The position numbers were made by a program, and so were the translations under genes. The notes under the pieces were generated by a model, which had not been told where the DNA came from, did no database searches, and worked only from the letters and a program-made list of their open reading frames with translations. This document shows positions 2,086 to 56,965 of a stretch of DNA of 64,000 bases, one piece after another (position 1 is the first letter of the stretch; each line of letters begins with the position of its first letter). Source of the stretch: Naegleria gruberi (lineage: Eukaryota); assembly GCA_000004985.1 (NCBI GenBank), contig GG738894.1. One strand, written 5' to 3'.

Positions 2086-5000
2086 ATGCCTCAAAGTAGA
2101 ACAATTACACCAAATTTTCCCTCCATCAACATGTTCCTATTTCATCGAGAACCGTACTTTTTAGATTCGAGTGAGGATAAAAATCGTATTCAAATCAACA
2201 ACAAGAACAATAATAGGGATGATGGAGAAGCAAAAACAATATTAAGGATGAGAAGTTTGGATGAAACTGTGCGGGATGATGATACGCATTCTTCTTCAAT
2301 ACATCATCAAGAAGCCTTGGAACATGTTTTTGGTAAGACAAGAACATCTTCCGCTACAACGAGAACAGTATCACAAAATTCAAGGAATACTAATTATTTT
2401 AATGCTAATACAATAGCAAAAAGCGAGAATAACAACAACTACAAGAAAAACCTTATTAATCACCTGATAATATTATTATTAATTACACTCTTAGTTGTAC
2501 TTCCAACCTTTGTAGAGTGCCTACATCCATTCGCCACATACAATTGGAACAATGATGATGAGATTTGGTTTGCTCAGTCGGCACCATTTTCTGGCCCTAG
2601 TAGCACAATTGGGACAGGTAAGTAGTATCAACATGTAAATGTTCTATAGTGAGTACTTTAATTAGAATTGAGAAATGGAATATTAGCTGCTTTTAATGAA
2701 ATCAACTCTGTTGGAGGTATATTCGGAAAGAAGAAGCTGAGATTGATCAGTATGGACGATGGCTATGAACCACCCAATACAGTTCGCAACATTAATAATT
2801 TTCTGAATGGAAACAAGACAATATTTGGATTTATTGGAGTGGTAGGCTCACCCACTATTCTTGCAGCCTATGATTTGGTAGTGTCGTCTGGTCTTCCTCT
2901 GATTGGAAGTTACACAGGAGCTACATTTTTGAGACAGCCCTTTCATGCAAATTTTGTAAACATTAGACCATCATACTATGATGAAACAGCTGCAATTATG
3001 GATGTATTGATTGGAAAAAACATGGCGAGGAAAATATCAGTCCTTCATCAAGATGATCCTTTTGGAATTAATGGATATGAAGGAGTTAAACGTATACTTG
3101 ACCATATGGGAATTCCAATGTGTTCATCAGGAAGTTATCAAAGAAACACACTCAACGTTGAGGATGCATTCTACAAGATTGCAAAGTGTGATCCAGATGC
3201 TATTGTTGTAGTGGCACTGTATGCACCAGCAACAAAATTCATCAAAATGGTTACCAACTCGACCCTTTACCGAAAGGATATTTTATTTGCAGCAACCTCA
3301 ATAGCCAGCGATTTAATTGTAAAGGAGCTAGGCCCTGAAATTGCTCCAAGAGTTCTGTTTTCACAAGTTGCCCCTTCTCCAACAGATACATCCTCGACCC
3401 TTGTTAAATCTTTCATCACCGCAAGGAAATCAATAGATTCTAATTTTACACAAGGTACATTTATTGAAATAGAGGGATATATTGCTGGAAAAATGACGTA
3501 TCACTTGCTCCACAGAATAATTGGATACATGTCCCCCAGTAACATGCTGACTAATCTTTACTATTCACAAGAAGTTATGTTTGACAATTTGAAATTAGGA
3601 CCATTCTCTTCAGTGTCTGTCAAGGATCCTGTTTACCTTATTCAAACAAATTTTTCCACTCAATTTGATTGCAATCAAGGCTCAAAATCAGTTTGGAGGA
3701 CGAAAGCTGATTCTAACTTGAATTTCTATAATTATGCACCTCCATTTTCATGGTACACTTCTGGCACATGTATTTCAACCCCAGGCGATGTCATCAATCC
3801 AATTTTATTAGCACAACTTGTTTATAACAATCTAGGATCTTCTAATACCTATCTCACTAACGGAATTAAAGCCGCCTTATCCACTGCATATGTCCAGGGA
3901 AGACCTATACATCTACTAACTCGCACTTACTCAGATTTCCAATCTCTTATTTCCACCACTCAAGATCTCGTTGAAAACTACTATATTACTGCATTGGTTG
4001 GATCTTCTGGATTGGGAGAAGTTATTAGTTTAAATACTTCCTCTATTGATCTATTCAGAGAGATATTTAAAACATCCTTCCCACATATTCCTCTGATTGG
4101 AAGTGTAGTTGACAATCCGTCAATCATGTCAACAACTGGTTCGTTGTTTATCCCATCCATGGTAAACATTAGAAGTACAATCATTGAGGAAATTGGAACT
4201 TTGCTTCAACATGCATTCAAAAGAGGAGTTACCAGAATATCAATAGTGAACTGTCCTGCATACGTCCATATCAACAAAATTTTCAAACTTTTAATGTCAA
4301 AATTGCAACTAACAATTGAGAGTGAGCATGGATGCTCAGATACCATTCTTTTCGATAGCATCTCGATAAACCCACAAGTGGTTCTAGTAGCATGTGCATC
4401 TGCCATTCTCCCTGGAACTCTTTTAAAGTTGGATGCAAGTAGTAATCTTAGACAAGATGCATTGTTTTTTGTTTTGGAAGAGAAGAAAAAGCTAGTCTTG
4501 TCAAGCCTTGAGAGTGGACCTAAAGGTGTACAAAGACCTATCTTATATAGTTCTTCATTCCCAGATCCAAAAATCTCGGCCGTAACCATTGTTTCAAGAT
4601 TTAAATCAACTACACCGCCTCTAACAGATCTTTCTGGGTATTATTCTTCTGATTTGGCTCTTGAAGGATATTTTATTGGAGAGTTTGTTGGATCAATATT
4701 GGGATCAGTTGCAGATTCAGCACCCTCAATAACAGGTCAGGCAATTATTGACTTTATATACAAAAGTCAACAGATAGTGGTGAGAGACCAAAAGTATGGA
4801 TACTTTATTAGAGACAAGAAAAATTCATTGTGCAATATTGGGTCGAGAACAAGATTTCTATTCCAGATAAGAAATTGTTCAACCTCAATACTATCAACAA
4901 CAGGTTTCCAACAACAATCATGTTGTTTACAATCTGTTTTAGAGGATTCCAGTACCCTCAACTTTAGAAGACCAATGCAGTTCGTTAGATTCAAACCAGG

Positions 5001-7125
5001 AGACACTGAACAACTTACCATCGAAGCAATAGATGATTTTGCAAAAGGAGTAATATCTTTCATTAATGATATTAATACCATGGGGAAATATTCATTTGCC
5101 TTTCAATTTCTTACTCAAACTTTTAATGGATCTTCTGATATTCAAATGTTAGCTAACGATTTAACCTCTAAACAGCAAATATTTGGTGTTATCGCTCCAG
5201 ATGTAGATTATGACATTGAAATGTTTACGAACATTAGTTTACCAATTATCGGCCCCAAAACTGCTAACATGCAATACAGAAATTACAAAAAAAATGTAAT
5301 TAACATCTACCCTTCCTTAATAGATGAAATCTTCAATTTGGTTGAATTTTTCCTAAAATTTAGTGACGCAATTACTATTGTTTATGAGTCCTTGGATGTT
5401 AATAATTATGCTCAACCCCAGGTATTGAAAACTATCCAAAATATAATAACTAACAGACAACTTTCAAGAGTTTCCCTCACTTGTATGACTTGTGTCAGTG
5501 ATCAAGCAGGGTCAGTAATAATTATGGCAGAAACAGAAGAAATCATTCAGTTTATTAGAGCAAATCAGAAGATAATGAACAGAGTTGGTTTGATTTCAGA
5601 AGCATATGAAGAGCATGATGATCTTAAAGAGTTGTTGTCCCTTCATTCGAATGTTTACATGTCCACTATAGTATCCCTCACAACAGAAATGACGGGATTT
5701 GTGGAATCTGAATTCACAAAGCATTTTCAAGTTTCGTTTCCAAACGACGTGCCAACAATAGAGTCTATAGATGGTTTCGTTTCCTTTTTGTTTGTTGAAA
5801 AAGTATTTGAGTCATTCTTAGATAGAATACAACCAAGACAACAACAGGCTTTCATTGACAAGATATATAGTCTCTCTGTTTTAGATATTGGTGACATTAC
5901 TCTTGGAAAGTTCACCAATACCTGCAATCAAGGAACAAGAAGATTGTACGTTAGCAGATTTTCCCTTAGTAACACAAGTGAAGTCATAACAGTCACAGAA
6001 CCAAACAGTCTTTTCACAATTTCAACATGTGGGTATAACTTCCCTTCCCCTGCAGTCATGGATTATCTTTATTATATTCTAATTTCTATATTGGCTATAA
6101 TTTTTTTGATTGTAGCCATGGGAATATCAGGTTTATTAATTTACAGACAGTATAAGGCTAAAAAGTCACACCTTCATGCTCCAAAAGGAGGAGTCATTTC
6201 TTTTGCGTTTACTGATATTCAAAATTCTACTGTATTGTGGCAATACAATGAGAAAGCAATGAAATTAGCTCTTGCTATACATAACAAGATAGTTAGGGAT
6301 AATATTAAGAAATACAGAGGTTACGAAGTCAAAACTCAAGGGGATTCATTCTTTGTTGCTTTTAGAAAGATAGAAGATTGTATTAATTGGGCATTCTCTG
6401 TTCAAAGTGATTTATTGAAAGCAAATTGGCCATCTGATATTATTACACAGTATGATTGTAGACCAGAATTTGAGGAAGGAACAAAAGTTTTGATTTATTC
6501 TGGTTTGAGGGTAAGAATGGGGCTTCATTGTGGTCAAGCTGAATATATTTTTGATAAGACTGTGAAAAGACCAGATTACTTTGGCAACACCATTAACCAG
6601 ACTGCCAGAATTCAAGCTCTTGCAAGAGGAGGAGAAATATTATGTAGTGAGGCCATGTTACAAGAAAGCAAATATTTATTTAAAATTTCTGGCCCAAGTT
6701 TCGAGGAGGAATTGTCGCATCAATCCTTAAACATACCAAGAAGAAGCTCTGAATCCACATTGTCAAAGAAGCGTAGATCAGTTGTTCCTGGATCCAATCC
6801 AATCTATACAGCCGAAGATTTTGGATATTGCTCCCTAAAAGGTATTAAGGAGGAAGTCAGAGTCTTTACACTTAAAAATAATGATATGAAACTTAGAGTT
6901 TTTCCACCTATTGGAAGATACAAAAATATTGAGGAAACATCGAACAATACCTTGCGATCGATTGCTTCCGTTCCAACATTTGAAACATCAAGTATCAATG
7001 GAGATGATATCATTGTGCACATTCCTGATCAAGCATCAGACAACCAAAAGAGCAAACCTGAACGGTTGAACACTCAAGCGATTGAACTTCCAGAGATTAT
7101 GATTTCTGGTGTAGATAATAAATAA
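2086..7125 (+). CDS. Receptor-type class III nucleotidyl (adenylyl/guanylyl) cyclase. Two exons (2086..2617 and 2666..7125, intron ~2618..2665).
   Basis: Exon 1 ends GGT|GTAAGT and the acceptor is TTAG at 2664-2665, giving …STIGTG-E-LRNGILAAFNEINSVGGIFGKK in frame. Domain order is N-terminal cytosolic region, a TM (LINHLIILLLITLLVVL), about 1200 aa of ectodomain with two PBP type-I (ANF-receptor/LivJ-like) modules, a TM (ILISILAIIFLIVAMGISGLLIY), then the cyclase catalytic domain (FTDIQNST…KTQGDSFFVAF…GLRVRMGLHCGQAE…GNTINQTARIQ). Confidence 0.75.
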
Positions 7126-45347: not shown

Positions 45348-46051
45348 TTGATCATCATGAGTTTGGCAACCAAATCACTCGGAAAACTCTCAAGAAATAG
45401 AGCCATCTTCTTTTGTTGTGATGTACAAGAGAGATTTAGAAGTTTAATTCATAATTTTCCATCCGTACTCTATGTTAGTAGTACAATGAATCAGGCTAGT
45501 TCTATCATGGATATCCCATTTGTTTGTACTGAACAATATTCAAAGGCTTTCGGAAAAACTTGTCCTGAAGTTGGATTGCCAACCGATAAGCCAAATTATC
45601 ACTTGTTTGAAAAGAAGAAATTCTCAATGTTGACTGATGAAGTGAAGGAAGTAATGAAGAATAATCCAAATCGTGATCAAGTTGTATTATTTGGTATTGA
45701 AGCTCATGTTTGTGTTTTGCAAACTGCTTTGGATTTATTGGAAGCTAACAAGGAAGTTCACATTTTGGCTGGTAAGTAATTTCGAGAGGATATTCAATAT
45801 TAATAATGAGGAATTAATCTTGATATGAATTAATAATATGAATTATATAGATAGATGGTACTTCTTCCCAAAGAACATTTGACAGAAGTGTTGCTTTTGA
45901 AAGATTGAGACAATCTGGAGCTTTTATCACCTCGTGTGAATCAGCTCTTTTCCAAATGATGGGTGGAGCCGATTATGAAAAGTTTAAGGAAGTAAGCTCA
46001 TTGATGAATCCACAAAAAGCTCAATTACGTCCTTACCAAGGTGAATTCTAA
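45348..46051 (+). CDS. Isochorismatase-family hydrolase (ISOC2-like). Two exons (45348..45771 and 45855..46051).
   Basis: FFCCDVQERF…VLFGIEAHVCVLQTALDLL…VHILAG, then GTAAGT…ATAG, then DGTSSQRTFDRSVAFERLRQSGAFITSCESALFQMMG. This is collinear with ISOC2 ([27 protein letters not shown]). Confidence 0.7.
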
Positions 46052-46412
46052 TAATTCATTCACTAACTATTAGTAGCAAATTAAAAACAATTGTAAATAC
46101 ACAAATCTCTATCTTCCTCAATAGACATACTCTTCAAGTCCACACAATAGTCCAACTTTCCAATCATCAAGTATGAGCTCTCTCTATCCTTAACACCGCT
46201 TCACCTTTTCTATCACCGACACTAAAGATTTAGTAAAATTTAAGAGAACAAAAAAATAGGCGAAAAGCTGAGAGCTATCCACGCATTGTTTTTGCATCGT
46301 TTTTGCATCGTTTTGAAAAAAGAGAGTACTGCTAGTGTGTGGTTATTAAAGTTTACTAGGTGATTTTATAAATTGAACATAATAATCGAATACAATTGCA
46401 TCAATAATCGGA

Positions 46413-47351
46413 ATGAACAAGGAAAAGAGTTATAGTCATATTATTGCTGGTGGTGTATCGGGAGTTGCTGCTTCACTTGTTACCCAACCTTTGGACGTAT
46501 TAAAAACGAACTTGATTGGTGCTAGAGAAAAATTGAAGGTCTCTGATATAAATGCTAAGGGAAAACTTCAAGGATCAATTTCCTTCATCAAATCAATTTA
46601 CAATAAGGAGGTAAGTCTATTCCGAACATTTTTCAATATTGAAAATATGAAGGGTATAGTAGGATTATGGAGAGGAACAATTCCTACATTTTGGAGATAT
46701 TTACCAGGAGGTGCAATGTATTTTGGATCAATTCACTTCCTTAGAAATGGTCCACTGAATAAGAATAATGGTTTTCCTCAAACTGTCAATGATTTCTTAA
46801 TTGGTGCCATTTCTAAGAGTTCTGCCACCATTGCTACAATGCCAATACTGGTTGTTAAAACAAGATTTGAAAGTATACATGCTATGGAAAGTACAAAATC
46901 AAGAGGATTAATAAGTACAATTACAGAAATTCACAAACAACAAGGGATGAGAGGATTATTTACTGGTGTAGTACCAACACTGATTAGAGATATACCTTAT
47001 AGTGGACTTTTCTATGTATTCTATAGACAAACCAATGATTTTTTAACATGGTTCAAATTGGGATCTACTGATTCTAATCAATTAATTAGTATTGCAGCTG
47101 TTAGTTCAGTCATTGCTGGAGCAACTGCTACCTTAATTACACATCCATTCGATTTAGTTCGTACTAGAATGCAATTACCAAACCAAGGAGGATATAATGG
47201 ATTTATGGATGCATTAATAACAATTCCAAAAGAAGAAGGATTGAGAACACTCTTCTTTAGAGGAATAATTCCAAAAATTCTGAAAAGAGGTTTAGCCCAC
47301 GCTATTTCATGGTCTCTGTATGAATCGACAGTCAAAGTTGCCACCCAATAA
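46413..47351 (+). CDS. SLC25A38: Mitochondrial carrier family protein, SLC25A38/Hem25-like (glycine carrier). Probable 42-nt in-frame intron at 46611..46652.
   Basis: Three carrier repeats with QPLDVLKTNL, VVKTRFES and HPFDLVRTRMQL, plus RGLFTGVVPTLIRDIPYSGLFY, which resembles SLC25A38. GTAAGT(46611)…GAAG(46652) is stop-free and a multiple of 3. Removing it restores the …SIYNKE-GIVGLWRGTIP carrier motif. Confidence 0.75.
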   Translation: MNKEKSYSHIIAGGVSGVAASLVTQPLDVLKTNLIGAREKLKVSDINAKGKLQGSISFIKSIYNKEVSLFRTFFNIENMKGIVGLWRGTIPTFWRYLPGGAMYFGSIHFLRNGPLNKNNGFPQTVNDFLIGAISKSSATIATMPILVVKTRFESIHAMESTKSRGLISTITEIHKQQGMRGLFTGVVPTLIRDIPYSGLFYVFYRQTNDFLTWFKLGSTDSNQLISIAAVSSVIAGATATLITHPFDLVRTRMQLPNQGGYNGFMDALITIPKEEGLRTLFFRGIIPKILKRGLAHAISWSLYESTVKVATQ

Positions 47352-47622
47352 TTATATGAATAATAATCCGTACTTGTAAATAATTATAATAATCGAGAAT
47401 TAACCTTTTTTCAATTAAATGAAATTTATTTGATTTTCACACTATACTCATTCAACATTTTCAACAGTTCAAACACAATTTTAAATCTGAAAGCTCAGAA
47501 AGGTCCATCAACCAAGATCTATTAAATTGGTTTGAGGAAAAAAGTTTTTTTTAGATTTTTCAAAAAGAATTAAAAAAATACAAGCAAGCGTCACCTTTAT
47601 TTCATCACCATTAAAACAAAAA

Positions 47623-48528
47623 ATGGAATTTAGATTACTTTCACCGGAATTGTCTCTCTCATCACGTGCTGAAGATTATGAAGCTGATGAAGAGGAAAAT
47701 CTTGAATTACCATCAAGTCCTCTTTTTGAAATTACGGAACAAGGAGTTGGAGTTTTGGATCATGATGATTTTTCAAAGAATGAATTTGATGTTTGTTTGA
47801 TTGGTGTTTTTGGAGCCGGAAGTCAATTTGTGAAAGGAGCTTTAGTGGAAAGAGTTGATGAATTAAAGCTTGTTCATGTTGCTTCTATCAGAAGTCAAGA
47901 AGATGCTCATACATCAAAGAAAGTGAAACGATCAAAGGATGAAATTGTAGATAAATTGTATTTGTACTCTGATCATGGAATGAAGGTTTTGATCATTGAT
48001 AGTGGAAGTGTAATTGAACAAAAACATAATGCCCAATATTGTACTGTATCAGAAAATCATCAAAAGGCCTATACAACCTATTTGTATTCTCAACTTTTGA
48101 TTGAAAAGGTTAAAGCAAAGAGATTTGTCATTCTTGATAGTATTTTGGCCAGCTCATTTACTATTGCTGATAGAAGAAATGCTAGACCACCACTTTTGAG
48201 ATGTTTGAGAACAACAGCTGACAGAAAATTAACATCACTCTTTTTACCACCAAATTTGGAATCACCAAACTTGATGACTGGTCTTTCTGGTACCATTTTC
48301 TCAATGCTTGAAAATCGAGGATTGAATGGTGTTTTACTTTGTTCATTGGAAGAAAATCACGGTTTAGAACAAGTAACTATGAAAGCTTTTGAAACACCAG
48401 TGTTTGCCTTATTAGTTAAAGAACATTCCTCAACAATGCAAGTTCCACTGTCTCCTCTCTCTCCAAACTCATTGGTAAAATACAAAACACACAAGTCAAG
48501 TGTTGAACATCAATCACTCTACTTGTAA
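47623..48528 (+). CDS. Hypothetical protein (301 aa)
   Basis: Intron-free ORF. No confident family assignment. Confidence 0.45.
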   Translation: MEFRLLSPELSLSSRAEDYEADEEENLELPSSPLFEITEQGVGVLDHDDFSKNEFDVCLIGVFGAGSQFVKGALVERVDELKLVHVASIRSQEDAHTSKKVKRSKDEIVDKLYLYSDHGMKVLIIDSGSVIEQKHNAQYCTVSENHQKAYTTYLYSQLLIEKVKAKRFVILDSILASSFTIADRRNARPPLLRCLRTTADRKLTSLFLPPNLESPNLMTGLSGTIFSMLENRGLNGVLLCSLEENHGLEQVTMKAFETPVFALLVKEHSSTMQVPLSPLSPNSLVKYKTHKSSVEHQSLYL

Positions 48529-48569
48529 TATTTACCTTAGAAATCTTGTAATAAATAAGATCAAAATAT

Positions 48570-49742
48570 TTATTCATAAATTGGAACATAGTCATTAATA
48601 CGGCTCTTCATGTTTTGTGAGATACATTCACAAATCCACAATAAGTTATTAATTTCTTGTTCTCTCAATTTAACAAATGAATAGAAAGAGGCATAATGGA
48701 ATTGTTGTTCGAATGAGGACTTGTTCAATTCAACAGCTCTCTTCTTCAAGAGAGATTCCAAGCTAGTTTGTTTTGTAACACTTTGCAAAGTTTCATAGAA
48801 ATATGGATATGGTTTCAGAATTTCGAGCATTGCTGAGTCATCATCAACTTCAGCCAATTTGTCTTGAACATCATAGAGTTCTCCAAAGTTTGGATACAAC
48901 TTCTTTCTTTCATCCTTTGGCAATTTGTTAGCAGATTCTTCTCTAACAGCATATGATTGTCTAGTAATTGTTAAAACAGCACGATCTGCTTCAAATTCCA
49001 AAAGTGGACACATAACTTCAGCAGTGGTTCCACCAATTGATTGACAAAAGTCATAGAAAGATTCCAAATAATTCTTTTGAAGTAATCCACGCAAATAGTC
49101 AGTAGAATATTCATCAAAGTCACGTGTTTCAGTCTTTGAGAAGAATTTACCAATTGGACTATCGATCAAAACCAATTCGTACATATCTTCAATTGATGTA
49201 GCAGCAGTGATAGCACCAAGAGATTCGAACATTCCCAAAGGATGACACTTGTACAAAATATCCAAAGCACCCTTTCCGTTTCTAACAGCAGAAACTAACT
49301 TTAAAACGTTGAGAATCATATAATCATAAATAATATAATCCAAGAATTGAGAAAGTGGAGGAACAGCTTGGAAACGGAATTCATTGAATTCTCTAACAAG
49401 CTTTTCGGTGGCCTTTTCAACAATAATAGTAGCAGTAAGACCGGCTTCATTTTGAAGGAAACTACCATAGTCAGTACCCGACAAGTGGAGTTTAATATCT
49501 ATTTTAAATATTCATCATCATCAATTATTATTATAATAACAAATACACGTTAATAATTCATCATCAAATTTTCCATCATCAAAAGATTTTTTTACTATTT
49601 AGAGGGGAGGTTATCGTCAAGACTTACCTTCCAAACTATCGCATTGAACCAAGTTGTTATAGTCTGATTGTCTGAGAATACCGTCTCTACAGCCTTGAAT
49701 AACACCTTCAAGGAAACCGTCGTCAATGTTGAATGTGAGCAT
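48570..49742 (-). CDS. ATP6V0D: V-type proton ATPase V0 subunit d. Two exons (49628..49742 and 48570..49498).
   Basis: Exon 1 [39 protein letters not shown], then GTAAGT…AAATAG, then [20 protein letters not shown]…CHPLGMFE…[29 protein letters not shown]…[16 protein letters not shown]. Collinear and about 50% identical to human ATP6V0D1. Confidence 0.85.
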
Positions 49743-49963
49743 TTTTATTGTTGTTGGGTTATAAAAATATTTTAAAAAAATCAAATTTTTAATTTTGGCC
49801 TTCTTTACAAAAATAAACACGGAGAAGAACGGAGTGTGTTTTCCTCTTCCGAAAGTCATATTGTTGGAATCGATTGTTGGAAGGTTATTGGATTTGAGCA
49901 GTGTTGTTCTCTATTAACTATGACAAATATTCAAGAATTCTATTTGCCTCAATAACAGTAAAA

Positions 49964-52900
49964 TTACTCATTGTTTTGAGAGTGAGCAATGTAATAGTCT
50001 AAACTTTCCAATAATCCACCATTTTCTGGTTTACCTTTCCCTGATAGTTCACGTGCTTTAACAGTTCTAGAAAGTAAGAGATGGAAAAAGTTTCCTCTGT
50101 CTCTTGTCATGTTGGCATAAAAATCAGAACCAAGGAATCCTCCAAAATCAGTGACAACTTGGTATGTGTATTTACTACGAGTGTCATTGATTCTTTCTAC
50201 GATAAACAGAGATTTGATCTTGGCTCTTACTTGTTTGGAATTTTCTGGACATTTTGGATGAGCTACTGATTTTTGGAGGCAAATATATGTGTTAGTATTA
50301 GGTCTGTATGTGCAACACATGGCTGTGAGGAAATCACGATTTGAGTTTGGCCAAGCCATTGAATAAATATCACTAAAATTATTAATATTAATTTGAAAAT
50401 ATTCATAATTAAACTTACTGGTAAATGACACTGTAGAAATGTCTACTTGAGGCAGTGTCAATTTGCTTGGATGTTAAAATGGTTGGATCTCTCATGCACA
50501 AATATTCAGGATCTATCCACATGTTGAAAACAGAATGATTGGAATATTCCAAGTGTCCAGTGAATTTCACAGCAGTATATTTCTTCTTGCTATCCAAGTG
50601 AATGTGAGCACCCTTTGGACTAATATACACCTTTCCCAGAGTTTGATCAGATTCTAATTGTGACCATCCAACAAATTCCATAGACTGATCAATGGCCGTA
50701 TCAAAATCGCTATTGATAAATAGGTGATCAGTTGGATCCAATAGAACATCTCCACACTTGCTACAGGTTTTTCTATTTCTGAGCTCATTTTCTTGTTCTT
50801 CCTGTAGAGTTTCCTCAAAGAGATTGAGTGGATTTGAGTCGGATTTTTCTTGTTCCTGTGGAGTTGACTCACGTTTTAGGAATCTCAGATAGAAAGTAGG
50901 ATCTGACTTGGATTTGTTCTCGACCCATTTCTTGAAAACTTTGGAAGCAACAAACTTTGGGAAGAGAGTTTGTCTCATCTCATCCAAAGCAAGATCCAAA
51001 CTAGTCTCAAAGAGATAGGCAGGGCAAAATATCTTTGAGTATTCTTTCCACTTGGTAATGAATTCTTCCTTCTTTGGTTTGAGGAATTTGACTTTAGAAT
51101 TATCTGAAAAGTATTGTTGAACAATCTTTTCTGCCATTTCATATCGTTGAGAAGTTGTTGGTACGAGTTGATATTCCATTACAGTTTCAAAGAATGTTAT
51201 TGTGTCCTGTTGATTGGTGGTTGCCAGATAATCTTTCATTCTACTAATGAACGAGAAATCTTGAAGTAAAGTTTCAAAATGATAGGATCCTGGTTTGTAG
51301 AATTCGCCTTCCGTTAAATTTTTCAGAGTGTCATCCTCTTGTTTCAATTCCTGACCAAAGAGTTGTACCAAGTATTGAATTGATTGACCTTCAGCATTTT
51401 GTAAATCTAAATATTTAGAAAGAGGGAATAATATTCTGGCTGATTTGAAATTGCCTTGTTTCAATGCAACATGGAGTGGTGTATCCCAGTCTGAATTCTG
51501 GAAGAAGGCACAATCTGGATTGACAAACAAAAGTACAAATGTTAGCTCTGGATGATTGTGTGCTACTGCTACATGGAGAGGAGTATTTCCTTCTCTATTT
51601 TGTGAAGAGCTGAGTCTTCTTACAATTTCCTCTGGGAGGACACTCAAAATCTCACCCACTGAATCAATATATCCAAATTCTGCACAAATATGGAGACAGT
51701 TATTCTTATTTTCATCTTCAATTTCTATTGCCTTGAGTTTGTAATTGTTGGCATCGAAAATTTCTGTATTCACCTTCTTATCGGTCAGGTCCATCAATAT
51801 TTGATTCAGAATGGCTGGGTGTTGTAAAGCAAGAAATATTGGAGTTTCTCCTCTCGAGTTTGGAATTGTCAAATCACACATACATCTCTTTACAAGGAAG
51901 TGCACACTTGTAATTAAATCCTTCTTGATGGCAATGTGGATTGGTGTATTCTTCTCTGGGCCGACTTGAGTATTGACATTGGCCTTACCATCAGCAAATA
52001 AAACAGTAGCAGCTTGGAAATTTTGTGATTCCATGCAAAGGTAGAATGGAGAATTGTCTTCATTGTCCTGCAAATTAACGTTTGCACCCTCTCCAATTAA
52101 ATATTGAAGAATGGCTGCAGTTCTATGTGGACTCACATTACAAGCATAAAACACTGCAGTTCTACCTCTCTTGTCTCTAAATTCCAAATCGGCCCCAAAC
52201 TCCTCACAGAGAAGACGAATAATTTTGATATTTTCATGAGCTACGGCTGTCATTAGGAGAGTTCTTCCTGTTTGCTCTGAAATAAATTCAGAGTCAATGT
52301 CAAACTTTCCACTAATTGTGGTTTCCTGTTGTTGTGACTGCTTCTTTGGTTCTATGTTGGTCGAGCTGACTGCTCCATTCTGTAATTCATTGGTTGTCTG
52401 ATTGGTACTATTGACACTATTAGTGCTACTACCACTATTGGTCCTAGAGTGTTCTGGAGATGTTTTTTCATGATTGTTTCCCGTTCCATTTGTTGATTGA
52501 TTCGAATCTTCATTAGAAACTTTCTTCTTTTCCTCTCTCAGTATTTTTTCCAACTTTTCCACTTGATGTTCAGAAATCAATCGATGCAACATTGTAATTA
52601 ATTCATGTTTTGGATCATTATTAACAGGAGTAACATTGACCACAACTTGTTGGGTTGATGTAACAATTGACTGAGCTGGTGGATTTTTATCCTTCTTTCT
52701 ATTCGTAACTCCTCCATTAGTATTAACACCAACTGTACTACTTGTAGTGCTTGATGTACTACTTCTCTTATTGGACTGAATAGCAAGTGAAAGAGTTGAA
52801 AATGGTAATACAGTACTACTTGTAGTTGGACCCGAGCAAATAATGAGAGAATCTCTAATCTTTCTTCCGGAAGATGTAATTCCCAAATCATAGGGATCTA

Positions 52901-53615
52901 TCTGTGAATGAGGAAAGACATTCTCCTCTGTGGTACTTCTCGTACTTATATCACTCATACTATTGTGAGGATTTGAATGATTAGAACTTTCCTGATTTTC
53001 ATGATTAGAAGCCACCTGATTGAGAAGACTAATTTCGGAGGGTGGAGTTGGCAAGGATGAAGTAATAACGAGTGGTTTCCTCGTGCTAGTTGTATTGGAT
53101 GTTAGGGCTGTTGATGATGATGCAATTGTTGCTGATGATGAATTATTGTTATTATTAATTTCATCATTTTGTGATGATGAAAGTGTTGATGATGATGATG
53201 ATATTGGATAGACAACACCCAATTCCGTGACAATCGATGAGGAAGAGGATGAATTGGACGATGATTGGTGTTCTATTAAATTATTCCCATTCATATCTTC
53301 CAATGAAGTTGAAACACTTTGATAGAGAACAGCTGCTGATACGTCCTTTATAGTTCTATTGATTATTGTTGTTGGTGTTGTTGTTGTTGTTGTTGGAATG
53401 GAAGAAGATTCTGAATTATCATCATGATGTTGTGAACAATCAAGTTTTTTCATAGCGTCAACATGATGATGATTAGGTGATAAGGAAGAAGATTCGCCTC
53501 CTTTACTACTCGAGGAATCGTCAGGAATAGCAGACGAAATATTGCCTTCTGTGCCGCTGCAGCTTGTCAATGATGACGTTGGCATTGATGTTATCAGAGA
53601 ATCATCATTACTCAT
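49964..53615 (-). CDS. Ankyrin-repeat, RGS and START (StAR-related lipid transfer) multidomain protein. Two exons (50419..53615 and 49964..50372).
   Basis: Ser/Thr/Asn-rich N-terminus. About 10 ANK repeats (GRTLLMTAVAHEN…TPLHVAVAHNH…TPLHVALKQGN). An RGS box (…FETLLQDFSFISRMKDYLATTNQQDTITFFETVMEYQ…). A START domain that spans a GTAAGT…TTTTAG intron (…MWIDPEYLCMRD…-HDIYSMAWPNSNRDFLTAMCCTYR…VTDFGGFLGSDFYAN). Confidence 0.7.
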
Positions 53616-53998
53616 TTTTTAATATTATGAAGAGGTATTTCCACTTTGTTATTATCCCACCCTTCGATTTTTGACAATTGAAAGATGTAATGATAGTTGG
53701 AAGTTTGTTTGTTGAAGCAAGTTTAGTTTCGAATAGATTTGTTTCTTTGTTTCTTTGACAAGGTTTATTCTTGATTGTTTTTATGGAGAAATGATTAGTT
53801 TTAAAAGATGTTCCTCAAAGTAAGTGAGTGTATAATAATTTGTAAAGATTCAGTGTAATACTTTACAAAACTTGTCATTCCGTTCAATATTCTCAAAAGA
53901 GATGTGAATAACAGTTAAATTGGCCTCTTTTGTTTCCAAGATTTCAATTGTCACAAAAGGCGCCGTTACAAACCGTTACACAAATTTTTGAATTTAAA

Positions 53999-55360
53999 AT
54001 GAAAATCTGCCAGCTATCATTCTCATCAACAAACAACAAAAAAATGTCTAACAAGCTTTTTGGATCCAAACAACAACACTCCTCTCCACCACCAGCATTC
54101 TACTACAATCCAAACTCTGAGAATATTCCTCCATCCAATGTTCTCACCAGTCCACGTAAGAATGCCAATACTCCACAAAAAGTTTCCACACCAAGAAAAA
54201 TGTTGGCCAACATGAAAGCTAAAGTTCTCCGTAAGCCATTCACTGCTACCGAAGAAGAGAATTATCAAAATGATGCTACTAGCACTTCATCATCTGGTTC
54301 AGCTGAAGAACAAGTTCCAGTCACTCCACAAAGAAGAAACACTTGTGAAGATGAAATTGTTTCAATGGATGAAGCTTTGGCTAAACGTTCACCAGAGGCC
54401 ATTCCAATTTCTATGGATGATTCCTCACACAAGATTGTCCAAGTTGAAAAGAAGCTTTTGAAGAAGGCCTCTGCAGCTCAATTGGAAATCTCCTCTGATG
54501 ATGTCAATTTGGAAGAAGTCCACAAGGATCTTGTCAACATGTCTGAACAATTAAGTGCCTGTGTTTTCGATAAGCAATTCAGTGATTTTGTTATTCAATG
54601 TGGTCCAGGTAATGCTACCAAGTATTACGTTCATCGTTTCATTCTCTCAAGCCGTTCAGCATACTTCCGTGCCTTGTTGAGCTCAACTGCCTCAGTTACA
54701 GGTGATATCCAATCTAATAAGCAACGTTACACTTGGGAACGTGAAGATATTCATCCAGAAATCTTTGGAAGAGTTTTGGAATACATGTACACTGGTCAAA
54801 TCAAATTGAGATTGGACAATGTTTTGGATGTCTTTGTACAATCTGAAGAATTTGGCATTCCATGTTTGAAGAAGTTGTGTGAAAATTACTTGATCGCCCA
54901 TGGTGACTATGAAAATATGGCTCAATTGTTGGAAATGGCCATTGAAAATAAGGCTCAAGAGTTGGTCAAGCACTGTTACAAGTACATTGACGAACATATT
55001 AAGAGAGTTCTCAAGTCTGAAACTATTAAGAATGTCAAGACATCAACCATTATCCAAATCATTTCTCGTGATTCGCTCCAATTGGAACCTTTGGAAGAAG
55101 TTTTGGTCTTTGAAGCTGTTCAAAAATGGGCTGAATTGAGAAAGCATTTGCCATTCGAAACTCCAAATATTTCAAAGATTATTGAACACGTTAGATATCC
55201 ATTGATGAGTTCTGAACAATTGGCCAACGTTGTTGAACCAACTCAACTTGTTCCTCAACATCCATTGTTATTCGAAGCTTACAAGTATCACTTGGTTAAG
55301 GATAAGAGCTCTAATCAAGCTCCAAGATTCAGAGCTAGAGCTGGTGCCTCTTCTCAATAG
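53999..55360 (+). CDS. BTB/POZ (plus BACK-like) domain protein
   Basis: BTB domain FSDFVIQCGPGNATKYYVHRFILSSRSAYFRALL…IHPEIFGRVLEYMYTGQIKL. Start is ATG 53999 or 54044. The ORF-track start at 53930 is TTG. Confidence 0.65.
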   Translation: MKICQLSFSSTNNKKMSNKLFGSKQQHSSPPPAFYYNPNSENIPPSNVLTSPRKNANTPQKVSTPRKMLANMKAKVLRKPFTATEEENYQNDATSTSSSGSAEEQVPVTPQRRNTCEDEIVSMDEALAKRSPEAIPISMDDSSHKIVQVEKKLLKKASAAQLEISSDDVNLEEVHKDLVNMSEQLSACVFDKQFSDFVIQCGPGNATKYYVHRFILSSRSAYFRALLSSTASVTGDIQSNKQRYTWEREDIHPEIFGRVLEYMYTGQIKLRLDNVLDVFVQSEEFGIPCLKKLCENYLIAHGDYENMAQLLEMAIENKAQELVKHCYKYIDEHIKRVLKSETIKNVKTSTIIQIISRDSLQLEPLEEVLVFEAVQKWAELRKHLPFETPNISKIIEHVRYPLMSSEQLANVVEPTQLVPQHPLLFEAYKYHLVKDKSSNQAPRFRARAGASSQ

Positions 55361-56107
55361 ATATTTTCGTAAGATTCCAATTTTACCTACACTCAAATAA
55401 TTGAACATCTCCAAATGGAGGAGATGTTTGTAAATAGATCATTCATGATCATCACCATCAAATTATTACATCTAGGAAACAAGATGGCACTTGGCAATTA
55501 ATCTTGTCAATTTCCAATCTTTAATAAATCTCTCTAGGAATTACAAATTAAATCAATATTTGCTTCTTCTTTCAATGAAATGCATACACATATGGTGAAT
55601 CATCATGTTGCACCACATTGTTTCACATTCTCCAATTTTGTAGTTATTCAAAGAAGAAACAACTGTAGTTTGTTGATCCTTCAAATATTTTTGTAAAATG
55701 TAGTGTTCACTTCATCCTTTCCAAACTATGACCAATATTGATTGGAATGATGATTAATTCTCCCTTTAAACAATAGTGATAAACTCGAATGTCAGCACAT
55801 CTCTCCACTATTAGTTGTATTGAGAAGGTATTTGCTTTATCTAACACAATGATGACAATGATGACGAAGGTCCTTACATTTGAAGTAATATTTGAAAATT
55901 CAATAATTCGTCGTCTGTTATTATTGAAGAAGGCTTGCAAATGGCCACCTCAAAAAAGACGCGAAAATTTTCATATCATCATAACGGTAATTTTTCATTG
56001 AAGGGTTGTAGGGAAGGTTTTGGTAAAATTCAATGCATTGATAACGTGCTTTGTTAGCCAACCCAATAAAAAAATTTAAAAAAAAAATATTTTACATCAT
56101 AACACAA

Positions 56108-56965
56108 ATGTACTCCTTCGCTACTCTCTACAAACCAGTCAAGAGCATCCTCTCCACTGATTCTGCTGACAAGGTTTCCATCTCTGTTTCCACCAAGGCT
56201 AACCCAGACTTCTCTGTTGCTGTTAGAGGTGCTAGAGCTAACGCTGATGGAAAGGTTGAATCCTCTCTCTCATGGAGCCAAAAGCTCAAGCAAGGTGGTG
56301 TTGCTTACACTGTTAACGGATCTTTGGATCAAGATGCCACTGTTGGTGTTACCGTTGTTGCTTCTGGTGTTGCTAAGGGTTTGAATGCTGATCTCTCAAG
56401 CAAGATGAAGACTGCTTGTGCTGATAACAAGGTCACTGGTAATTTGGATTACACTGCTGAAAAGTTCCACTTGACTGGTAACTTTGACCATACTTGTGGT
56501 GGTGCTCTCCTTTTGACTGCTACTGCCACTGCTCAAGTTGTTGAAGGTTTGGTTGTTGGTGGTGATGCTCAAATCAAGGCTTTGCCAAAGGAAGCTAACC
56601 CACTCAAGAAGTACACTGTTGGTGCTAGATACTCCATGAAGAATATTGATGTTGCCACACAATTGGAAGATTCTTTGAAGAAGATCAGAGTTGGTTATGC
56701 TCAAAAGATTGACGATAGTGTCTCCGTTGCTGGTGAATTTGCTCACGAACTTAAGAGTGACAAGGCTCCAGTTTTCACTCTCGGTACTCAATACAAGATT
56801 GATAGCGATTCTTCCATCAAGGCTAACATTAACACTAAGGGTATTGCTAATGCCACTTACTCTTTGACTGTTAACCCACGTTTGACTACTTCTATTTCTG
56901 CTGAAGCTGATGTCTTTGCTAAGAATGTTTCAAAGGTCGGTCTCTCCATCAATTACAGTGCTTAA
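56108..56965 (+). CDS. VDAC: Mitochondrial outer-membrane porin (VDAC)
   Basis: 286 aa beta-barrel. KAPVFTLGTQYKIDSDSSIKANINTKG closely matches Dictyostelium porin (APSFNVGTQYKIDSASLLKAKVNN). Start taken as ATG 56108; the ORF-track start at 56051 is TTG. Strong codon bias. Confidence 0.8.
   Translation: MYSFATLYKPVKSILSTDSADKVSISVSTKANPDFSVAVRGARANADGKVESSLSWSQKLKQGGVAYTVNGSLDQDATVGVTVVASGVAKGLNADLSSKMKTACADNKVTGNLDYTAEKFHLTGNFDHTCGGALLLTATATAQVVEGLVVGGDAQIKALPKEANPLKKYTVGARYSMKNIDVATQLEDSLKKIRVGYAQKIDDSVSVAGEFAHELKSDKAPVFTLGTQYKIDSDSSIKANINTKGIANATYSLTVNPRLTTSISAEADVFAKNVSKVGLSINYSA

What the first reader, a model, noticed from the sequence alone, without database searches (positions are those of the whole stretch)
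49964..53615. Unusual ankyrin-RGS-START domain combination
A GAP domain for G-alpha is fused to a StAR-related lipid-transfer domain and about ten ankyrin repeats. This suggests lipid- or sterol-regulated termination of G-protein signalling. The START domain is split by a 46-nt intron and was fragmented in the ORF track. I do not recognise this architecture from described families.
Basis: partly seen in the sequence, partly recalled or inferred. Interest (0 to 1): 0.6.

Follow-up and report, generated by a model that had tools for sequence, protein, structure and literature searches.

The report
Annotated Naegleria ankyrin-RGS-START protein gene
The gene is real and has the ankyrin, RGS and START domains described, but it is the already-annotated, uncharacterised Naegleria gruberi protein XP_002672969.1, one of about 229 RGS proteins in that amoeba, and its RGS domain lacks the asparagine that normally helps switch G proteins off.

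Summary
On the minus strand, exon 1 (53615..50419), a 46-nt GTAAGT…TTTTAG intron (50418..50373) and exon 2 (50372..49964) give a 1201-aa protein. Ank, RGS and START all pass Pfam's curated cut-offs, and the START match runs across the splice junction.

The spliced product is residue-for-residue identical to Naegleria gruberi NEG-M XP_002672969.1 / UniProt D2VSP1, "ANK domain-containing protein". The window is therefore a heterolobosean, not a dictyostelid, and the gene model has been public since that genome was annotated.

N. fowleri has a syntenic orthologue, FDP41_006167, with the same intron site. A second Ank-RGS-START paralogue exists in three Naegleria species.

The 445-aa RGS-linker-START stretch behaves as a reusable cassette. 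It also ends PAS-cyclase proteins in Naegleria and stands alone in short proteins from unnamed eukaryotic contigs.

N. gruberi has 229 RGS proteins. START and ankyrin were already listed among the domains recurrently fused to RGS (de Mendoza 2014). None of these proteins has been studied experimentally.

The "GAP" reading is not secure. The RGS4 Asn128 position is an invariant Lys here, and the closest solved relative by profile is the non-GAP GRK2 RH domain. Lipid-coupled Gα docking is plausible but untested.

Interest is low to moderate.

The parts
49964..53615 (-). Whole coding region of N. gruberi XP_002672969.1 / D2VSP1 (1201 aa): two exons and the stop codon
   Evidence: Exact identity to the public protein.
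50419..53615 (-). Exon 1: codons 1-1065 plus the first two bases of codon 1066
50373..50418 (-). 46-nt phase-2 intron, GTAAGT...TTTTAG, 11% G+C, with a stop codon straight after the donor site
   Evidence: Same site in N. fowleri (81 nt) and in L006 (45 nt). The N. fowleri annotation splices it.
49964..50372 (-). Exon 2: last base of codon 1066, codons 1067-1201 and the TAA stop. It encodes the C-terminal two thirds of START.
   Evidence: It aligns without gaps to the Naegleria paralogues.
52299..53615 (-). N-terminal region rich in Ser/Thr/Asn and of low complexity (about residues 1-439). It contains two conserved islands, residues 296-330 and 384-410.
   Evidence: 37% identity to the N. fowleri orthologue against about 70% for the domains; alignment.
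51306..52277 (-). Ankyrin-repeat solenoid, about residues 447-770: 8 canonical repeats plus capping helices, with a disordered insert between repeats 5 and 6
   Evidence: Pfam Ank families, E 1e-18 to 1e-30. AlphaFold model, pLDDT 77.6, helix pairs counted.
50928..51278 (-). RGS / RGS-homology domain (Pfam residues 780-896). Lys843 occupies the RGS4 Asn128 position.
   Evidence: 32.3 bits against cut-off 23.9. (GRK2 RH 4e-10, RGS8 8.5e-9, RGS4 1e-7). (residue mapping). Helical bundle in the models.
50679..50927 (-). Linker, residues 897-979: an acidic stretch predicted to be disordered, then the CxxC motif (C951, C954; 50754..50765) just before START
   Evidence: pLDDT below 50 for the equivalent stretch of the orthologue model. 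Cys conservation.
49985..50678 (-). START domain (Pfam residues 980-1153; the modelled C-terminal helix reaches about residue 1195), interrupted by the intron
   Evidence: 36.3 bits against cut-off 22. Profile versus PDB: CERT 2.6e-5, STARD10, PCTP. Foldseek on the orthologue model: STARD10 3.7e-12, CERT, StAR, STARD4/5, PCTP.

Best explanation
This is the Naegleria gruberi gene for XP_002672969.1 (UniProt D2VSP1). It is a soluble 1201-aa signalling scaffold.

Its conserved working unit is the C-terminal RGS-linker-START cassette. Naegleria reuses this cassette behind ankyrin repeats, as here, and behind PAS-cyclase domains.

Most likely mechanism (inferred, not shown):
- The RGS-homology domain docks an activated G-alpha subunit at the membrane. 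It acts more like an anchor or effector-type RH domain, as in GRK2, than like a canonical Asn-assisted GAP.
- The adjacent START domain binds a membrane lipid. That lipid gates or localises the Gα-docking step.
- The eight ankyrin repeats hold the partner protein(s) that receive the signal. In the cyclase paralogues that output is the cyclase itself.
For: Shown:
- The spliced product is identical to the public N. gruberi protein.
- All three domains pass Pfam cut-offs.
- The START fold is confirmed on the orthologue model, and the ankyrin solenoid and RGS bundle are modelled.
- Ank, RGS and START are equally conserved between N. gruberi and N. fowleri (72, 71 and 67%) while the N-terminus is 37%. 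All three domains are therefore under constraint.
- The 445-aa cassette matches end to end in N. fowleri FDP41_000489 and N. gruberi NAEGRDRAFT_45297. The former carries PAS, cyclase and START Pfam hits; the latter PAS and cyclase. It also matches short stand-alone RGS-START proteins.

For docking rather than a classical GAP:
- The RGS4 Asn128 position is Lys in every Naegleria Ank- or cyclase-linked member. The stand-alone relatives keep Asn (P0246) or Ser (P0271).
- Asn88 is Thr, Asp163 is Thr and Ser85 is Gln.
- The family profile scores the GRK2 RH domain highest among solved structures.

Context:
- Naegleria has diversified G-alpha subunits and a very large RGS repertoire (PMC3971589; PMC9283941).
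Against: - No biochemical data exist for this protein or any orthologue. No paper in the library holds their accessions.
- The margin between GRK2 RH (42 bits) and RGS8 (38 bits) is small.
- Loop alignments at 20-25% identity can be off by a residue or two. Two independent alignments do agree here.
- Glu87 to Asp and Arg167 to Lys are conservative changes, so the G-alpha contact surface may be partly intact.
- All N. fowleri RGS domains tested so far, including that of the RGS-RhoGEF effector, behaved as canonical GAPs (PMC9283941).
- The ligand of the START domain is unknown. Sterol-binding START structures match almost as well as phospholipid- or ceramide-binding ones.
Confidence: 0.4

Rival explanations
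1. The RGS domain is an active GAP for G-alpha, and the START domain makes that GAP activity depend on a lipid or sterol, either through membrane recruitment or allosterically. Lipid state then sets how fast G-protein signalling is switched off.
For: - The RGS domain passes Pfam's cut-off, and the profile matches R4-type RGS proteins at 1e-7 to 1e-9.
- The tested Naegleria RGS domains are canonical GAPs (PMC9283941).
- Stand-alone relatives of the cassette keep Asn or Ser at the key position, so the ancestral cassette was probably a GAP.
- The tight, conserved RGS-START pairing argues that the two domains work together.
Against: - Asn128 is replaced by an invariant Lys. Asn88, Asp163 and Ser85 are also replaced in all Naegleria Ank- and cyclase-linked members.
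- From my own knowledge of RGS4 mutagenesis, only Asn or Ser is well tolerated at this position.
- The closest solved relative is a non-GAP RH domain.
- There is no evidence on the ligand.
Confidence: 0.3
2. The START domain is the business end. The protein is a lipid-transfer or lipid-presenting protein. The ankyrin repeats and a degenerate RGS-homology domain serve only to target it to a membrane site or partner, without any role for G-alpha.
For: - The START fold matches bona fide lipid-transfer proteins (STARD10, CERT, PCTP, StAR) at E 1e-8 to 1e-12.
- Some RGS-homology domains (sorting nexins, Axin, AKAP10; my own knowledge, and PMC3971589 notes loss of GAP function in some RGS domains) have scaffolding roles.
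- The key GAP residues are replaced.
Against: - The RGS domain is as conserved as the START domain between species (71% against 67%).
- It travels with START into cyclase proteins. That fits a regulatory signalling module better than a transfer protein.
- No FFAT, PH or other contact-site targeting motif was found by Pfam.
Confidence: 0.15
3. Artefact: the START exon belongs to a separate gene, or the fusion is a mis-assembly or mis-annotation.
For: The unspliced ORF stops at residue 1066. Prokaryote-style gene callers on related contigs split the gene there.
Against: - The START HMM match spans the junction.
- Exon 1 alone holds only the first third of START.
- Three species share the intron site and phase, with unrelated intron sequences of 46, 81 and 45 nt.
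- The paralogues are collinear across the junction.
- The N. gruberi and N. fowleri annotations give the same spliced product.
- An independent metagenome contig is 99.1% identical across most of the gene: exon 2, the intron and about the last 650 codons of exon 1.
Confidence: 0.01

Closest known systems
Naegleria gruberi XP_002672969.1 / EFC40225.1 / UniProt D2VSP1, 'ANK domain-containing protein'
   Same: Identical over all 1201 residues, so it has the same exon-intron model.
   Different: Nothing differs. It is the same gene. The public name mentions only the ankyrin repeats, and no function has been published.
Naegleria fowleri FDP41_006167 (XP_044559406.1, A0A6A5B8W1, 'RGS domain-containing protein'), the orthologue
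   Same: - About 70% identity over Ank, RGS and START.
- Same intron site.
- Same neighbours: BTB/BACK, porin and V-ATPase d (FDP41_006170).
   Different: The intron is 81 nt instead of 46 nt, and the low-complexity N-terminus has diverged (37% identity).
Second Naegleria Ank-RGS-START paralogue (N. fowleri FDP41_008282, N. lovaniensis C9374_007590, N. gruberi P0003) and the PAS-cyclase-RGS-START proteins (N. fowleri FDP41_000489, N. gruberi NAEGRDRAFT_45297)
   Same: - The same RGS-linker-START cassette.
- The K[LV]KF motif at the Asn128 position.
- The CxxC and HxH motifs.
   Different: - 39-41% identity for the Ank paralogue, and 28-29% over the cassette for the cyclase proteins.
- The paralogue lacks the long low-complexity N-terminus.
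- The cyclase proteins replace the ankyrin repeats with PAS and cyclase domains.
R4-type RGS proteins (RGS4, RGS8, RGS16), canonical G-alpha GAPs
   Same: Same Pfam family and helical-bundle fold. Profile E-values are 1e-7 to 1e-9.
   Different: Asn128 is Lys, Asn88 is Thr, Asp163 is Thr and Ser85 is Gln. The R4 proteins have no fused START or ankyrin domains.
GRK2 RGS-homology (RH) domain
   Same: It is the best solved match of the family profile (4e-10). It also has a similar alpha8 motif, FQKF against FPKF here.
   Different: GRK2 carries a kinase and a PH domain. The margin over true RGS proteins is small, and membership of the GRK RH subgroup was not tested.
DLC / STARD8, STARD12 and STARD13 proteins (SAM-RhoGAP-START)
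   Same: The layout is analogous: a GTPase-regulating domain followed by a C-terminal START domain. The STARD13 START domain is among the fold matches. The architecture is from my own knowledge.
   Different: The regulatory domain there is a RhoGAP for small GTPases, not an RGS domain. There is no homology outside START. This is a resemblance in design only.
STARD2-group START domains (CERT/STARD11, STARD10, PCTP)
   Same: They are the closest START relatives by both sequence profile and fold.
   Different: Identity is 15-20%. Sterol-binding START domains (StAR, STARD4, STARD5) score nearly as well, so the ligand class cannot be assigned.

Membership tests
RGS domain family (Pfam PF00615) | Sequence match above the curated HMM threshold | tested here: met
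   32.3 bits against a cut-off of 23.9, residues 780-896. The family profile hits RGS8, RGS10, RGS4 and RGS16 at 1e-7 to 1e-9.
RGS domain family (Pfam PF00615) | All-helical RGS bundle fold | tested here: met
   The AlphaFold models give a bundle of 8-9 helices, with pLDDT 80-93 in the orthologue model and 63-75 in the window model. No separate fold search was run on the RGS domain alone.
Canonical G-alpha GAP subclass of RGS proteins (RGS4-like) | Asn (or Ser) at the RGS4 Asn128 position in the alpha5-alpha6 loop, which contacts the G-alpha catalytic Gln | tested here: not met
   It is Lys843, invariant in all Naegleria Ank- and cyclase-linked members. The stand-alone relatives have Asn (P0246) or Ser (P0271). 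Two alignments agree.
Canonical G-alpha GAP subclass of RGS proteins (RGS4-like) | Other switch-contact residues (RGS4 Ser85, Glu87, Asn88, Asp163, Arg167) | tested here: inconclusive
   Glu87 to Asp and Arg167 to Lys are conservative. Ser85 to Gln, Asn88 to Thr and Asp163 to Thr are not.
Canonical G-alpha GAP subclass of RGS proteins (RGS4-like) | Acceleration of GTP hydrolysis on a G-alpha subunit | not testable with these tools
   This needs a biochemical assay such as those in PMC9283941.
START domain family (Pfam PF01852) | Sequence match above the curated HMM threshold | tested here: met
   36.3 bits against a cut-off of 22, residues 980-1153, spanning the splice junction.
START domain family (Pfam PF01852) | Helix-grip fold with a long C-terminal helix | tested here: met
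   The orthologue model (67% identical in this domain) matches STARD10 at 3.7e-12 (TM-score normalised to the target 0.71), and also CERT, StAR, STARD4/5 and PCTP.
START domain family (Pfam PF01852) | Binding of a lipid in the internal cavity | not testable with these tools
Model coordinates are not returned.
Ankyrin-repeat proteins | Tandem 33-residue helix-turn-helix repeats above the HMM thresholds | tested here: met
   Ank_2 7.2e-30 and Ank 7.1e-24. Eight helix pairs in the model.

The most novel reading that the evidence does not exclude
In Naegleria, the RGS-linker-START cassette has changed from a GAP into a lipid-gated G-alpha docking module. The signs are the Asn-to-Lys change at the key position and an added CxxC/HxH metal site. 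The cassette would plug heterotrimeric G-protein state directly into different outputs: cyclases in one set of paralogues and ankyrin-bound partners in this one. That would be a way of wiring G-alpha to effectors that is not described in animals, fungi or plants.
Probability: 0.2. Interest if true: 0.5.

Novelty: already known. Interest (0 to 1): 0.22.

Why it matters
As a discovery it matters little. The gene, its intron and its domain make-up are already in public databases. It is one member of a very large lineage-specific RGS expansion: 229 RGS proteins in N. gruberi and about 108 in N. fowleri. Fusions of RGS with START and with ankyrin repeats have been catalogued.

Its residual value is as a lead. 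The RGS-START cassette is conserved, reused in front of different partners and wholly uncharacterised. An orthologue exists in the pathogen N. fowleri, whose G-protein signalling is being explored for drug targets (PMC9283941). If lipid binding really gates G-alpha docking or GAP activity, it would be a simple, testable link between membrane lipid state and G-protein signalling.

Tried and rejected
- **Dictyostelid origin: rejected.** The neighbouring V-ATPase d is 86% identical to N. fowleri, 82% to Willaertia and 43% to dictyostelids. Window proteins match N. gruberi accessions exactly.
- The representative search and the structure predictor both turned it away. I used the contiguous exon-1 piece, residues 757-1065, for the exhaustive search. 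That search saw only the N-terminal third of START. For the RGS-START model I used the N. fowleri orthologue.
- **Unexplained search result.** A word-indexed search with the RGS-START region alone returned a single hit and did not re-list the Naegleria proteins. I do not rely on it for distribution.
- **Exact look-up of the unspliced ORF.** The 1066-aa ORF found nothing. The spliced product was found.
- **Single-sequence search against solved structures.** It gave only marginal hits. A profile of eight cassette sequences was needed.
- **Literature.** No paper holds the accessions of this gene or of its orthologue. Nothing was found for PRJEB11402 or for RGS plus START plus domain architecture. 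Anantharaman et al. 2011 is not held. The supplement of de Mendoza et al. 2014 with the architecture figure is not held, so I could not see whether this exact three-domain order is drawn there.
- **Taxonomy of the stand-alone RGS-START contigs (L004, L005).** This could not be assigned.
- **Ligand class of the START domain.** It could not be narrowed down.
Full report
**1. The observation**

The minus strand carries an ORF of 1066 codons (50415..53615) and a downstream ORF in another frame (49964..50461).

Reading the sequence shows a donor GTAAGT at 50418 and an acceptor TTTTAG ending at 50373. Removing these 46 nt, which are 11% G+C against about 35% in the exons, joins the two frames. The result is a 3606-nt CDS of 1201 codons. 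The intron is phase 2, and the ORF hits a stop immediately after the donor site.

Pfam on the spliced product:
- Ank_2: 7.2e-30; Ank: 7.1e-24.
- RGS: residues 780-896, 32.3 bits (cut-off 23.9).
- START: residues 980-1153, 36.3 bits (cut-off 22).

The START match crosses the junction at residue 1066. Exon 1 therefore carries the first third of START and exon 2 the rest.

An AlphaFold model of residues 425-910 (pLDDT 77.6) shows eight canonical ankyrin helix pairs plus capping helices, with a disordered insert between repeats 5 and 6.

**2. Whose gene it is**

The closest full-length relatives are all from Naegleria:
- A contig product 68% identical (P0001).
- Three annotated proteins at 38-39% identity over 98-99% of the Ank-RGS-START region, from N. 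fowleri, N. gruberi and N. lovaniensis. All three carry Ank, RGS and START Pfam hits.
- No dictyostelid appeared.

The neighbouring V-ATPase subunit d is 86% identical to N. fowleri, 82% to Willaertia magna and 43% to dictyostelids.

An exact look-up settles the question. The spliced 1201-aa product is identical to N. gruberi NEG-M XP_002672969.1 / EFC40225.1 / UniProt D2VSP1, "ANK domain-containing protein". Three neighbouring ORFs equal NAEGRDRAFT_72007, 72014 and 72015 on the same 499,907-bp scaffold (identity re-checked). The window is N. gruberi, and the public gene model already contains this intron.

**3. Orthologue, paralogues and the intron**

- P0001 clusters with N. fowleri FDP41_006167 (1231 aa, "RGS domain-containing protein").
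- Its contig has the same neighbours as the window, BTB/BACK and porin. The N. fowleri V-ATPase d gene is FDP41_006170, three loci away.
- The N. fowleri contig has an 81-nt GT..AG intron at the same codon and phase. The annotated protein reads across it exactly as predicted.
- A third related contig (L006) has a 45-nt intron at the same site.
- The intron sequences and lengths differ (46, 81 and 45 nt) while the flanking exons are conserved.
- The paralogue proteins are collinear across the junction.
- A metagenome contig is 99.1% identical across most of the gene: exon 2, the intron and about the last 650 codons of exon 1.

The idea that the START exon is a separate gene is excluded.

Identity between the N. 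gruberi and N. fowleri orthologues by region:

| Region | Identity |
|---|---|
| Ankyrin repeats | 72% |
| RGS | 71% |
| START | 67% |
| Linker | 56% |
| Low-complexity N-terminus | 37% |

**4. The RGS-START cassette**

I ran an exhaustive HMMER search of 1.84 billion representative proteins. The query was the contiguous exon-1 piece, covering RGS, the linker and the first third of START. It found only 33 proteins at E ≤ 0.001.

Those matching across both RGS and START fall into three groups:
- The Ank-type Naegleria proteins.
- Large Naegleria proteins with PAS and adenylate/guanylate cyclase domains: N. fowleri FDP41_000489 (the search hit, P0242, is a shorter 1537-aa version of this 2109-aa protein) and N. 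gruberi NAEGRDRAFT_45297.
- Short stand-alone RGS-START proteins from unnamed, compact eukaryotic contigs (P0246, P0271).

The whole 445-aa cassette aligns end to end in all of them. The conserved unit is therefore RGS-linker-START. Naegleria places it behind different N-terminal parts.

**5. What the domains look like**

*START.* The model of the N. fowleri cassette has pLDDT 76, and the linker is disordered. Foldseek matches:
- STARD10 at 3.7e-12.
- CERT at 6e-11.
- StAR at 3e-10.
- STARD4, STARD5 and PCTP at about 1e-8.

The sequence profile also finds CERT, STARD10 and PCTP. The fold is secure. The ligand class is not.

*RGS.* The cassette profile's best solved match is the GRK2 RH domain (4e-10). 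RGS8 follows at 8.5e-9 and RGS4 at 1e-7.

Residue mapping came from a profile alignment to RGS4. MAFFT agreed independently, through the stand-alone member P0246, whose EINVSSGTR matches RGS4 EVNLDSCTR.

| RGS4 residue | Window protein |
|---|---|
| Asn128 | Lys843 |
| Asn88 | Thr805 |
| Asp163 | Thr |
| Ser85 | Gln |
| Glu87 | Asp |
| Arg167 | Lys887 |

- Lys at the Asn128 position is invariant in all Naegleria Ank- and cyclase-linked members (motif K[LV]KF).
- The stand-alone relatives have Asn (P0246) or Ser (P0271).
- From established RGS4-Gαi1 structural work (my own knowledge), Asn128 is the residue that reaches the Gα catalytic site, and only Asn or Ser is common there in active GAPs.

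The domain is a genuine RGS-family member. Its GAP activity cannot be assumed.

**6. What is already known**

- de Mendoza et al. 2014 counted 229 RGS proteins in N. gruberi. They listed START and ankyrin repeats among the domains repeatedly and independently fused to RGS in divergent taxa. They also noted that some RGS domains have lost GAP activity (PMC3971589).
- Bosch et al. 2022 reported 28 7TM-RGS proteins, 79 other RGS proteins and one RGS-RhoGEF in N. fowleri. They tested only four 7TM-RGS domains and the RhoGEF, and do not mention START or ankyrin (PMC9283941).
- No paper in the library holds the accessions of this gene or of its orthologue.

The protein is catalogued and uncharacterised.

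**7. How it most likely works**

Shown: the architecture, its conservation, the reuse of the cassette and the residue substitutions.

Inferred:
- The RGS-homology domain docks an activated Gα at the membrane.
- The START domain binds a lipid that localises or gates this step.
- The ankyrin repeats hold the downstream partner. The cyclase plays that role in the paralogues.

I favour docking over classical GAP catalysis because of the Asn-to-Lys change, at a confidence of about 0.4. It is supported by the GAP-type residues in the stand-alone relatives and by the canonical behaviour of the Naegleria RGS domains tested so far. A targeting-only role for the RGS domain beside a lipid-transfer START domain is less likely, at about 0.15.

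**8. Verdict**

- The organism guess was wrong.
- The gene is already annotated.
- The architecture is one product of a huge Naegleria-specific RGS expansion. It is a reasonable candidate for biochemical follow-up but not a new kind of system.

Noticed in passing
window 50754..50765 (Cys951, Cys954) and 50598..50606 (His1004, His1006), minus strand: A CxxC motif lies just before START, and an HxH motif lies in the first START strands. Both are conserved in every Naegleria Ank- and cyclase-linked cassette and absent from the stand-alone RGS-START relatives. This may be an added zinc site. The model puts the CxxC on a short hairpin of low confidence.
   Followed up: partly
window 52626..52730, minus strand (residues 296-330): The sequence ITSSGRKIRDSLIICSGPTTSSTVLPFSTLSLAI is a conserved island inside the otherwise fast-evolving low-complexity N-terminus. 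It is nearly identical in the N. fowleri orthologue. It could be a short linear motif or a docking site.
   Followed up: no
window 2668..7125, plus strand: This 1485-aa ORF has two periplasmic-binding-protein-type domains (Peripla_BP_6/ANF_receptor and Peripla_BP_A-cyclase) and an adenylate/guanylate cyclase catalytic domain. It is a receptor-type cyclase of the kind expanded in Naegleria.
   Followed up: no
P0272 (N. fowleri FDP41_000489) and P0243 (N. gruberi NAEGRDRAFT_45297), outside the window: The same RGS-linker-START cassette ends large proteins that carry PAS and cyclase domains. In them Pfam misses the RGS part, and in P0243 it also misses START.
   Followed up: partly
L002 / L003 (ERR1078381, PRJEB11402) against window 46000..52369: A metagenome contig is 99.1% identical to the window over 6.4 kb. 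DNA of N. gruberi or a very close strain is therefore present in that sample. No paper mentioning the project was found.
   Followed up: partly
window 48570..49484, minus strand, and upstream to about 49600: The V-ATPase subunit d ORF starts at a TTG and is 304 aa, while its homologues are 346-350 aa. Its true start probably lies in a short upstream exon beyond another small intron.
   Followed up: no
window 53930..56965 and L001 1681..4444: The gene order porin, BTB/BACK, Ank-RGS-START is conserved between N. gruberi and N. fowleri. V-ATPase d is adjacent to the Ank-RGS-START gene in the window. In N. fowleri it is three locus tags away: FDP41_006170 against FDP41_006167.
   Followed up: partly
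L004 7001..8461 (JGI 3300062347) and L005 142..1422 (SRR31888923): These are stand-alone RGS-START proteins of 486 and 426 aa on compact, apparently intron-poor eukaryotic contigs of unknown taxon. They keep Asn or Ser at the RGS4 Asn128 position and may represent the ancestral form of the cassette.
   Followed up: partly
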